DNA of 42,657 bases from Octopus sinensis (lineage: Eukaryota), in the NCBI RefSeq assembly GCF_006345805.1, contig NW_021835077.1:1-42657 (forward strand), written 5' to 3'. Positions 17,154 to 19,127 of this stretch are shown piece after piece. Position numbers: made by a program. The first letter of the stretch is position 1. Every line of letters begins with the position of its first letter.

Positions 17154-19127
17154 GAAGAGGAGGAGGAGGAGAGACTAATTAAGTCAAACCGTGAACTCTC
17201 CTATCACCCCCCCCCCGCTACCGACTTTCATTGCATCTTGTGTTGCGATGTTGGGGATTGCAAAGATAAGAAACACGGTGGTGGGGGTAGTGGAGGAGGA
17301 GAGGGTAGTGGAGGAAAGAGAGGAAAGCCCCTACATGGCCATTCCACCTGCTAGAAATAGCAGCCAAACTTTCATCAAAATTACACCATGTGGTGTATAA
17401 ACTATGAGTGACACACAAGACAGCAGTCCGCGATAGACTGTGTATGGTTAAATGAGATGGTCGCAGACGGAACGCCATCCATTGAGCATAGGTCTATCCA
17501 AACGACTGGCTGGGGGCTACACAACAACAACAGCAGCAGCAGCAGCAACAAAGCTGGTAGAGCCGTGAGGTTCAAAGTGTCGCTTCGAAACTAAGTGGTC
17601 GTTGGTTCGATGCCAGTGTACCACGGGGTAGTGGTGGGGAAAATCTTTCCTGTGAAGCAAGAATTTAGGGTGGAGGTACAGACAGACAGACAGGACGAAA
17701 TGGTCAGTGCCAGTATCCCTTTGATCATAGGCCTGCAGGATCAACAGTGACCGCGTAATAAATACCAACAACAAAGATGCCTGGACATGGTCACTCGATC
17801 CTTCAGAAATAGCAGTCAAATCTCCCTCAATCTACAATCTGGTACTAACAAAGCGATGTCACATTACATAATCACTTTTAAGTTTATAGAATCCCGATAG
17901 AATTCAGTCAGCAATGCAAGTTACGACATTTCATAAACGAATAGTCTATGTAAACAATGCTATCGGTAAAAGAAAAATAGGTAGTGGGTGTATATCCATA
18001 TTTCGAGAGTTATTTTCCTTTCATCAGTATCACATCAACTATCTACGAACGCATTGCTTAAAACCCATTAAGTTTAGCGGTTGAATCTATAGAGATAAAC
18101 TTAACAGTGAGTACAGCACACTGCTAACACGGAGTAAGATACAGTATTGACTTGTAAAGGCGGCGAGCTGGCAGAAACATTAGTGTGCCCGGCGAAATGC
18201 TTAGCGGTATTTCGTCTGGCGGTGAGCTGGCAGAAACGTTAGCACGTCGGACAATTGCGTAGCCGTATTTCGTCTGCCGTTACGTTCTGAGTTCAAATTC
18301 CGCCGAGGTCGACTTTGCCTTTCATCTTTCGGGGTCGATTATTAAGTACCAGTTACGCACTGGGGCCGATGTAATCGACTTAATACCTATGTCTGTCCTT
18401 GTTTGTCCCCTCTGTGTTTAGCCCCTTGTGGGTAATAAAGAAATAGGTATTTCGTCTGGCACAACGTTGTGAGTTCAATTTCCGCTGAGGTCGACTTTGC
18501 CTTTCATCCTTTCGGGGTCGATAAATTAAGTACCAGTTACGCACTGGGGTCGATGAAATCGACTTAATACCTATGTCTGTCCTTGTTTGTCCCCTCTATG
18601 TTTAGCCCCTTGTGGGTAATAAAGAAATAAGTATTGACTTGTAAACCTTTAATACATTTGATGGTGTATCATAGTTGCCAAACGAAATTCTGTGTCCACG
18701 CCATCAGTTAACATTACGTAATATATAGTCCAATCCTAGACACCATATCTCACGGAGAAGGTCAGCTCAGGGCTGAACAACAACAACAGCTGGTGCTGCT
18801 GCTGTTACTACTACTGCTACAGGGAGCCTAAAATGATGTTTTAATTTTTGTTTAATATACTATTACTTTCGAACAAAAATTAAGTAAAACAAAAATGTGT
18901 GTGTGTGTAAGTGTGTGTTTGATGATAAATGTACTCGGCCTCTTTACTCCGAGTTTAATGGAATTGGTCCAAGTCTGAGAGGAATTCTCGCTTTGGGAGA
19001 AGAGAAAATTAATGATAGAGAAAATAGCAAATAACAATTTGATTCAAATTATTTTAAAATATTGATCATTTTTCTATCATTTCTGTAATTATTTTCTCTC
19101 CCTAGGTTGTTATTAACATTTCATGGG

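What the first reader, a model, noticed from the sequence alone, without database searches (positions are those of the whole stretch)
18143..18645. SINE inserted into an identical SINE at its own GGTATT motif: direct evidence of self-targeting
The outer element has TSD AGTATTGACTTGTAAA. The inner element is bounded by GGTATTTCGTCT (18206-18217 and 18446-18457), i.e. the target is the SINE's own head/body junction. Both TSDs begin RGTATT, and the SINE 3' end reads AAGAAATA immediately before it.
Basis: seen in the sequence. Interest (0 to 1): 0.7.

Follow-up and report, generated by a model that had tools for sequence, protein, structure and literature searches.

The report
Octopus SINE nested in its own target motif
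A short octopus retroposon has jumped into an older copy of itself at a short sequence motif that this family seems to prefer everywhere, and the same junction starts a small tandem array nearby, hinting at how dispersed repeats can turn into satellite-like DNA.

Summary
A 16-base direct repeat (18143-18158, 18630-18645) encloses an older SINE copy. That copy is split after its base 59 by a complete 228-bp copy (18218-18445). The inner copy is flanked by the 12-base repeat GGTATTTCGTCT at 18206-18217 and 18446-18457. The two copies belong to one subfamily but are not identical.

The window is Octopus DNA: its Helitron helicase is 96% identical to an O. vulgaris protein.

Other copies in the window support a preferred target.

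All 7 of 7 SINE units that start internally start at consensus base 48/49 and directly abut a SINE 3' end, at 3 loci. One locus has one head plus six 183-bp bodies inside a single duplication (11256-12400).

Best reading: LINE-driven insertion with a nick preference Y|RGTAT(T). The SINE carries this motif itself, so nesting there is a by-product that also seeds tandem body repeats.

The genome-wide test could not be run, and the partner LINE is unknown. This is a new variant of known kinds and of moderate interest.

The parts
18143..18158 (+). 5' copy of the outer target-site duplication (16 bases, begins AGTATT)
   Evidence: 16 of 16 identical to 18630-18645
18159..18217 (+). 5' piece of the outer (older) SINE, consensus bases 1-59. 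Its last 12 bases (18206-18217) are the 5' copy of the inner duplication.
   Evidence: nhmmer model 1-62, E 2.9e-13
18218..18445 (+). Inner, complete SINE copy (228 bp, subfamily A2)
   Evidence: model 1-231, E 1.6e-80
18446..18629 (+). 3' piece of the outer SINE, consensus 48-231. Its first 12 bases (18446-18457) are the 3' copy of the inner duplication.
   Evidence: model 49-231, E 2.2e-61
18630..18645 (+). 3' copy of the outer target-site duplication
11247..12409 (+). Supporting locus. One full SINE (11256-11484) is followed by five further body units (consensus 48-231, period 183), each joined ...AAGAAATA|G(G)TATTTCG. The whole is flanked by the 9-base duplication GGTATGCAA (11247-11255, 12401-12409).
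   Evidence: (TRF 6.0 copies, 95%)
9217..9476 (-). Supporting locus. Single full copy 9459-9230 with the 13-base duplication GTTATGGTAATGT (9476-9464 and 9229-9217) and 4 extra bases at the 5' junction.
22666..22931 (+). Supporting locus. Single full copy 22684-22914 with the 17-base duplication GGTATTTAAAGCACAAT (22666-22682, 22915-22931) and 1 extra base at the 5' junction.
22965..23371 (-). Supporting locus. Full copy 23350-23121 is joined directly to the body of an older related SINE with a different tail (23120 to about 22986), which starts at GGTATTTC. No older head lies upstream. The composite is flanked by a degenerate 21-base repeat.
   Evidence: 17 of 21 bases, P about 0.005

Best explanation
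The element is a 228-231 bp non-coding retroposon of an Octopus genome. I call it SINE-A here; the family name is mine. It is copied into new sites by a LINE's endonuclease and reverse transcriptase through target-primed reverse transcription.

The first nick falls preferentially just before R-G-T-A-T(-T) on the strand that will carry the SINE sense sequence, after a pyrimidine. The second nick falls 9-17 bases downstream, which gives duplications of variable length. Some SINE-A copies themselves contain GGTATTTCGTCT at bases 47-58, so resident copies are targets.

At 18143-18645 a newer A2 copy landed in an older A2 copy at that motif, with a 12-base stagger. This separated the older copy's 5' 47 bases from the rest.

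The same junction (3' end | base 48) also founds forms with one head and several bodies, by one of these routes:
- 5' joining guided by the 12-base homology between the new cDNA and the target
- collapse of the two adjacent heads
- template switching of the reverse transcriptase

Arrays then grow by unequal exchange.

Shown: the anatomy, the duplications, the shared motif and the recurrent junction. Inferred: LINE mediation, which strand is nicked first, endonuclease (and not primer pairing) as the source of the preference, and the route from nesting to arrays.
For: 1. Nesting. The perfect 16-base outer and 12-base inner duplications sit at exact element ends. The outer pieces restore one full element. 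The two bodies differ at 12 positions plus 3 gaps and the heads at 11 plus 1, like independent copies (6-13). Locally duplicated array units 3-6 differ by only 0-3.

2. Retroposition. Duplications are 9, 12, 13, 16 and 17 bases long. Untemplated bases (4 and 1) sit at two 5' junctions.

3. Motif. 5 of 5 duplications begin R-K-T-A-T, 4 of 5 begin RGTAT and 3 of 5 begin RGTATT. On the 4 junctions not used to propose the motif, 2 of 4 match RGTATT (P 2.7e-6) and 3 of 4 match RGTAT (P 2.3e-8). Background frequencies were taken from the window itself, and 13 of its 30 GGTATT sites are SINE-borne, which makes the test conservative. The base before the nick is a pyrimidine in 5 of 5 (reading).

4. 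Recurrence. 7 of 7 internally starting units begin at model base 48/49 and abut a SINE-A 3' end, at 3 loci, with none at any other position. For 3 independent hits on one base of 231, uniform chance is about 2e-5 (arithmetic).

5. Copies that were hit carry G at base 47 (outer head, array unit 1). 3 of 6 heads carry C there.
Against: - The sample is one 42.7-kb window: 5 duplications and 3 independent SINE-in-SINE junctions. No genome-wide count was possible.
- The motif pattern R-K-T-A-T was widened after seeing the data. One duplication (GTTATGG...) misses RGTAT.
- A tail-only fragment (15317-15389, model 170-231, E 1.9e-5) is followed by ACATAA. It has no identifiable duplication, so I left it out of the counts. 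With it, the scores would be 2 of 5 and 3 of 5.
- The 5 junctions inside the array are not independent events, because units 3-6 are near-identical.
- The locus at 23350 lacks the older element's head, which simple nesting does not predict.
- No partner LINE or reverse-transcriptase gene was found in the window.
- The head gave no tRNA or Rfam match. 'SINE' therefore rests on anatomy, not on a shown polymerase III origin.
- A2 copies also carry GGTATT on the antisense strand near base 170 (4 sites). None of these is occupied.
Confidence: 0.72

Rival explanations
1. One retroposition event made the whole composite. The reverse transcriptase switched templates between SINE RNAs, so nothing was ever inserted into a resident copy. 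The recurrent 228|48 junction would then reflect re-priming of the nascent cDNA, whose 3' end at base 48 looks like the preferred primer, on the 3' end of another SINE RNA.
For: This fits the two one-head forms well. The array (1 head + 6 bodies) lies inside a single 9-base duplication. The composite at 23350 (full SINE-A plus an older-type body from GGTATTTC) lies inside one degenerate 21-base repeat with no second head.
Against: For the finding itself it would need a further jump from the 5' end of one RNA into base 59 of a third RNA. It also does not predict that bases 48-59 are present twice, which is exactly what a staggered cut gives. Array units 1-2 differ much more from units 3-6 (3-11 mismatches plus many gaps) than units 3-6 differ among themselves (0-3). 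That argues against a single-event origin of the whole array.
Confidence: 0.12
2. Local DNA-level duplication (unequal crossing-over or replication slippage) within a single SINE copy made the extra head and the extra body. There was no second insertion.
For: Local amplification clearly happens in this family. Array units 3-6 differ by 0-3 bases and share a private variant (GTTTCG against GTTACG in the other copies). The squamate paper suggests unequal homologous recombination as a route to the first duplication (PMC10702118, Discussion read).
Against: It needs two separate duplications, each with a breakpoint exactly at an element end (base 1 and base 228/231). The duplicated parts differ as much as unrelated copies do: 12+3 in the bodies and 11+1 in the heads. 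It also leaves the shared motif at non-SINE targets unexplained.
Confidence: 0.05
3. A true nested insertion, but with no site preference. The similarity of the duplication starts and the repeated use of base 48 are chance, or arise from how element ends were drawn.
For: The sample is small. The pattern was partly defined after the fact. One duplication (GTTATGG...) and the tail-only fragment at 15317-15389 do not fit RGTAT.
Against: P values of 2.7e-6 and 2.3e-8 were obtained on junctions not used to define the motif. The motif is present in the 5' copy of each duplication too, so it belonged to the target and not to the element end. Three independent loci share the same junction base.
Confidence: 0.05

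Closest known systems
L1/Alu target preference (mammals)
   Same: A LINE endonuclease with a weak preference for a short target. The duplication begins at the nick and has variable length. [quoted passage not shown]
   Different: The motif here is G/T-rich (Y|RGTATT), not A-rich. It lies inside the SINE's 5' region, not in a tail or linker. The SINE has no poly-A or simple-repeat tail. That Alus tend to land in A-rich parts of other Alus is my recollection and comes from no call.
Insertion signatures of RTE-related SINEs (Au-like, Sauria, Bov-B)
   Same: SINE duplications show a family-specific start. That start is linked by the authors to the partner LINE's cleavage and to the 3' end of the RNA template (PMC6007223 and PMC13295347, abstracts read).
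   Different: Their signature is a T at the start of the duplication about ten bases downstream of a T stretch, plus 3' microsatellite-like repeats. Here it is a 5-6 base motif, the 3' end has no microsatellite, and the partner clade is unknown.
SINE-derived satellites (sSats) of squamate reptiles
   Same: These are tandem repeats of a portion of a SINE with a longer terminal unit that reaches the SINE terminus, and a unit length in the 150-180 bp range (PMC10702118, Background and Discussion read). The array at 11256-12400 has that anatomy (183-bp unit, full 5' unit).
   Different: Those authors offer unequal homologous recombination or repeated insertion at one locus as possible starts, without a sequence-level cause. 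Here the unit boundary coincides with the family's own insertion motif, and an uncollapsed nested intermediate with duplications is present. Only 6 units were seen. Array sizes genome-wide are unknown.
Sequence-specific non-LTR retrotransposons (for example Waldo elements in ACAY repeats)
   Same: APE-type elements that choose targets by sequence (PMC3812793, passage read).
   Different: Those use one repeat or one gene as target. Here the targets are varied unique sequences that share only about 5-6 bases, so this is a preference and not site specificity.
Tandem SINE multimers (Dip/B1 in jerboa) and dimeric SINEs (Alu)
   Same: SINE copies lying head to tail. This is mentioned in PMC10702118's Discussion. 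A second SINE family in this window also forms a full-length tandem pair at 25618-25999.
   Different: Those are full-length units joined at tails, or dimers that amplify as dimers. Here the join is 3' end to internal base 48.

Membership tests
SINE (non-autonomous, LINE-mobilised short retroposon) | Short (under about 600 bp), non-coding, many dispersed copies with subfamilies | tested here: met
   228-231 bp. There are 6 full copies plus 7 partial units in 42.7 kb, in two subfamilies.
SINE (non-autonomous, LINE-mobilised short retroposon) | Flanking target-site duplications of variable length, no terminal inverted or long terminal repeats | tested here: met
   Duplications of 9, 12, 13, 16 and 17 bases, 5 of 5 perfect. 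Extra bases at two 5' junctions.
SINE (non-autonomous, LINE-mobilised short retroposon) | Head derived from a small polymerase III RNA (tRNA, 7SL, 5S) with an internal promoter | tested here: inconclusive
   ARAGORN found 0 genes. Rfam gave 0 matches at gathering score and 0 at E up to 10 on two copies. Box-A-like and box-B-like stretches were seen by eye only, against a recalled consensus.
SINE (non-autonomous, LINE-mobilised short retroposon) | 3' end shared with a partner LINE | not testable with these tools
   No reverse-transcriptase reading frame in the window. No eukaryotic genome collection was available. The tail-only fragment 15317-15389 could be a LINE 3' end or a truncated SINE.
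Retroposons with a sequence preference at the first nick | A shared motif at the start of duplications of independent insertions, above background | tested here: met
   5 of 5 R-K-T-A-T. 2 of 4 held-out junctions match RGTATT (P 2.7e-6). Window-scale sample only.
Strictly site-specific non-LTR elements (one gene or one repeat as target) | All insertions in the same genomic sequence | tested here: not met
   The four non-SINE targets share only the first 5-6 bases.
SINE-derived satellite (sSat) | Tandem repeats of part of a SINE with a longer terminal unit reaching the SINE terminus | tested here: met
   11256-12400: full unit plus 5 units of consensus 48-231, period 183, 95% matches. The definition is taken from PMC10702118.
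SINE-derived satellite (sSat) | Many or long loci, homogenised arrays, chromosomal clustering | not testable with these tools
   One 6-unit array in one window. No genome access.
Dimeric SINE that amplifies as a dimer | Many copies with the same multi-unit structure, each with its own duplication | tested here: inconclusive
   In the window there are 2 monomers with their own duplications (9459, 22684), plus the inner copy. There are 3 multi-unit loci, each of a different structure. The sample is too small.

The most novel reading that the evidence does not exclude
The retroposition machinery itself gives birth to satellite-like DNA. Because the SINE carries its own preferred priming or cleavage motif at base 47-52, each self-hit is usually resolved through the 12-base homology, or by re-priming of the nascent cDNA. 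This produces one head followed by an added 183-bp body. Tandem arrays would then be seeded, and perhaps lengthened, by reverse transcription and not by recombination. The locus at 18143-18645 would be the rare unresolved intermediate. This would give a sequence-level cause for the 'nonrandom' origin of SINE-derived satellites.
Probability: 0.3. Interest if true: 0.65.

Novelty: new variant of a known kind. Interest (0 to 1): 0.45.

Why it matters
SINEs are among the most abundant repeats of octopus genomes: 11.6% of O. vulgaris (PMC13282606) and about 40% of repeat content (PMC8967140).

A family that prefers a motif it carries itself would pile into its own copies. This would have three effects:
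- It would spare genes.
- It would break the 5' promoter part of older copies away from the rest.
- It would create the first body duplication from which arrays can grow.

How dispersed SINEs become tandem satellites is described as an open, 'nonrandom' process in the squamate study (PMC10702118). Here the unit boundary, the insertion motif and a nested intermediate coincide, so the question can be tested by simple counting in any octopus assembly.

It also has practical value. Repeat annotation pipelines that merge adjacent fragments would misread these loci.

Tried and rejected
- **tRNA origin of the head.** ARAGORN on the window found 0 genes. Rfam found 0 at gathering score and 0 at E up to 10 on 18100-18700 and 9200-9500. 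No support was obtained, and I do not call the head tRNA-derived.
- **Partner LINE.** No reverse-transcriptase frame appears among reading frames of 90 aa or more in the window, or of 35 aa or more next to the tail-only fragment. The partner is unresolved.
- **More copies from public DNA.** One scan of genome contigs (bacteria and archaea only) with a 25-base SINE stretch gave 0 hits. The genome-wide test therefore stayed unchecked.
- **Literature.** Searches, plus a search for the 25-base string (0 papers), found no paper describing this octopus SINE's target motif, self-nesting or body arrays. This covers only the held library. The 2015 octopus genome paper could not be read (id not held). 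What I say about older octopus SINE names is left out for that reason. Two 'find' look-ups were useless: one search matched 'sinensis' and one search gave 0 whole-word hits.
- **Base pairing of the SINE RNA 3' end with the nicked primer.** I considered this as the cause of the motif. The last bases of the SINE are not complementary to the inferred primer end, so pairing would need a transcript that reads into the flank. This is neither supported nor excluded.
- **The 16-base perfect tandem duplication at 22642-22673.** I considered it as an 'empty' duplication left by an aborted insertion. Its phase does not start at the motif in either orientation, so I dropped the idea.
- **Relative age of the two copies.** The outer body has 17 differences of 172 from the majority and the inner body has 9 of 172. 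The heads have 7 and 8 of 59. The direction fits outer-older, but the numbers are too small to claim it.

Full report
**What is at the coordinates**

- A perfect 16-base direct repeat, AGTATTGACTTGTAAA, lies at 18143-18158 and 18630-18645.
- After the first copy come 59 bases of a SINE 5' end (18159-18217).
- A complete 228-bp copy of the same SINE follows (18218-18445).
- The remainder of a SINE from consensus base 48 to its end follows (18446-18629).
- The 12 bases GGTATTTCGTCT end the first piece (18206-18217) and begin the last piece (18446-18457).
- Both SINE 3' ends read AAGAAATA.

Removing the inner copy and one 12-mer restores one full element. Tandem Repeats Finder sees the two bodies as 2.0 copies of a 184-base unit with 92% matches.

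**Organism and element**

The window has 34-48% G+C, many microsatellites and interstitial TTAGGG-type runs. It carries a Helitron-type helicase frame whose best matches are Octopus vulgaris (96% identity) and O. sinensis (88-94%) proteins. This is octopus DNA.

BLAST and a profile search of the window with the inner copy found six full copies and seven partial units:
- full copies at 9459-9230 (-), 11256-11484, 18218-18445, 22684-22914 and 23350-23121 (-), with the outer split copy as the sixth
- five extra body units at 11485-12400
- a tail-only fragment at 15317-15389
- an older related family with the same 5' region but a different tail, at 26792-27015, at 21745-21591 (-), and after the copy at 23350

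Two subfamilies are visible. A1 comprises the copy at 9459 and the array. A2 comprises the inner copy, the outer copy and the copies at 22684 and 23350.

ARAGORN and Rfam found nothing tRNA-like in the head. I call it a SINE on anatomy: it is short and non-coding, it is dispersed, it has variable duplications, and it shows extra bases at 5' junctions. A polymerase III origin is not shown.

**Is it a nested insertion?**

Yes, with high confidence. One staggered-cut insertion explains the junction 59|1, the junction 228|48 and the doubled 12-mer together.

DNA-level duplication would need two events, each with a breakpoint exactly at an element end. The duplicated parts are also not young copies of each other:
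- The bodies differ at 12 positions plus 3 gaps and the heads at 11 plus 1 of 59.
- Independent A2 copies differ at 6-13 positions.
- Array units 3-6, which clearly are local duplicates, differ at 0-3.

A one-event chimera by template switching would need a jump from the 5' end of one RNA into base 59 of another. It does not predict the duplicated 12-mer.

**Is there a target motif?**

The five duplications of this family in the window are:
- AGTATTGACTTGTAAA
- GGTATTTCGTCT
- GGTATGCAA
- GTTATGGTAATGT
- GGTATTTAAAGCACAAT

The copy at 23350 adds the junction ...AAGAAATA|GGTATTTC. T-A-T at positions 3-5 is invariant. The base before the nick is C or T in 5 of 5.

On the four other junctions, 2 match RGTATT and 3 match RGTAT. 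With the window's own motif frequencies (6.7e-4 and 1.8e-3 per position and strand), this gives P = 2.7e-6 and 2.3e-8.

The motif is present in the upstream copy of each duplication. It therefore belonged to the target and is not a misplaced element end.

The tail-only fragment at 15317-15389 is followed by ACATAA and has no recognisable duplication. I left it out of these counts and say so.

**Is the SINE its own target?**

The motif sits at consensus 47-52. Base 47 is G in the outer head and in array unit 1, C in three heads and A in one. Only some copies offer the full motif, and the copies that were hit have it.

All 7 of 7 units that begin inside the consensus begin at model base 48/49 and directly follow a SINE-A 3' end. 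No SINE-A 3' end abuts any other interior position. These 7 come from 3 loci. By arithmetic, three independent hits on one base of 231 have a uniform-chance probability near 2e-5.

'Self-targeting' is best read as a by-product of a general motif preference. The four non-SINE targets share nothing beyond the first 5-6 bases.

**The one-head, many-body forms**

The locus at 11256-12400 has one head and six bodies inside one 9-base duplication (GGTATGCAA).

The locus at 23350 has a full SINE-A followed by an older-type body that starts at GGTATTTC. The older head is missing. A degenerate 21-base repeat flanks the composite (17 of 21 bases, P about 0.005).

Simple nesting would leave as many heads as bodies, so an extra step is needed. 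I see three routes, and all use the same motif:
(a) During a self-hit, the free top-strand end (SINE bases 48-59) anneals to the matching part of the new cDNA. Second-strand synthesis then starts there and skips the new head.
(b) The two adjacent heads of a nested product collapse by slippage or recombination.
(c) The reverse transcriptase re-primes on a new SINE RNA when the cDNA reaches base 48.

Route (a) predicts that the older head is retained. The head at 23350 looks like SINE-A and not like the older family, which fits (b) or (c) better there.

After the first doubling the array grew locally. Units 3-6 are near-identical and share a private variant, while units 1-2 are more diverged. 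The finding's locus is the only uncollapsed two-head form in the window.

**What produces the preference**

The default reading is the cleavage preference of the partner LINE's endonuclease, as for L1 (PMC3812793) and RTE-related elements (PMC6007223).

Pairing between the primer and the RNA 3' end is the alternative. The last SINE bases are not complementary to the inferred primer end, so it would need read-through transcripts.

Active octopus LINE clades listed for O. vulgaris are RTE, Dong-R4, CR1 and L1-Tx1 (PMC13282606). I cannot say which one is the partner.

**Comparison and novelty**

Target preferences of LINE/SINE pairs, nested repeats and SINE-derived satellites are each known. The array here meets the anatomical description of squamate sSats (PMC10702118).

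I did not find in print the coincidence of three things in one family: a 5-6 base insertion motif, the same motif inside the SINE, and a tandem-unit boundary at that motif. A nested intermediate is preserved alongside them. The searches were made; supplements were closed and one key paper was not held.

I rate it a new variant of known kinds and of moderate interest. The evidence is from one window, and the decisive genome-wide counts are easy but could not be run here.

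Noticed in passing
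11247-12409: One full SINE plus five further 183-bp body units in tandem, inside a single 9-base duplication. Units 3-6 differ by only 0-3 bases, and the variant GCTTTTC alternates (units 4 and 6). This hints at growth by two-unit steps.
   Followed up: yes
22965-23371 (- strand): A full SINE-A is fused to the body of an older related SINE family that has a different tail. The older head is missing, and a degenerate 21-base repeat (17 of 21) flanks the composite.
   Followed up: partly
22642-22673: Perfect 16-base tandem duplication (GCTATCGCGGTATTTA x2). Its second copy overlaps, by 8 bases (22666-22673), the start of the target duplication of the SINE at 22684, so the GGTATTT motif occurs twice there. 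The origin is unexplained.
   Followed up: partly
25618-25999 (- strand); also 10501-10602, 14530-14701, 29473-29597: A second, unrelated SINE-like family with a TA-rich tail. Two full copies lie head to tail at 25618-25999 (191-base period, 94%), apparently joined at the tail. This is a different kind of join from the internal one in the finding.
   Followed up: partly
31012-35574: Helitron-type element with Helitron-like N-terminal and PIF1-type helicase reading frames, split over several frames. The 818-aa frame is 96% identical to an Octopus vulgaris protein.
   Followed up: partly
15317-15389: Fragment matching only the last 60 or so bases of the SINE (E 1.9e-5), with unrelated sequence upstream and no duplication found. 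It could be a 5'-truncated copy or the 3' end of the partner LINE.
   Followed up: partly
18387, 18571, 22856, 23178: A2-subfamily copies carry a second GGTATT on the antisense strand near consensus base 170. None is occupied in this window. This is useful for telling motif-driven cleavage from homology-driven routes.
   Followed up: no
4334-4393 and 27961-28013: Short interstitial telomere-type repeats (ACCCTA / TTAGGG units).
   Followed up: no
16704-17002 and 19128-19520: Long trinucleotide arrays (GTG x about 100, ATT x about 130) on either side of the finding. The first causes the strong G+C skew of 16-18 kb.
   Followed up: no
9586-9945 and 5165-5469: Young tandem repeats of unknown origin: a 72-base unit x5 (97%) next to the SINE at 9459, and a 151-base unit x2 (99%).
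   Followed up: no
10308-10372 (-) and 14826-14889 (+): Weak matches (E 0.0035 and 0.1) to the central part (model 120-173) of the SINE profile, each lying within about 130 bases of a copy of the second SINE family. This may be a shared central domain.
   Followed up: no
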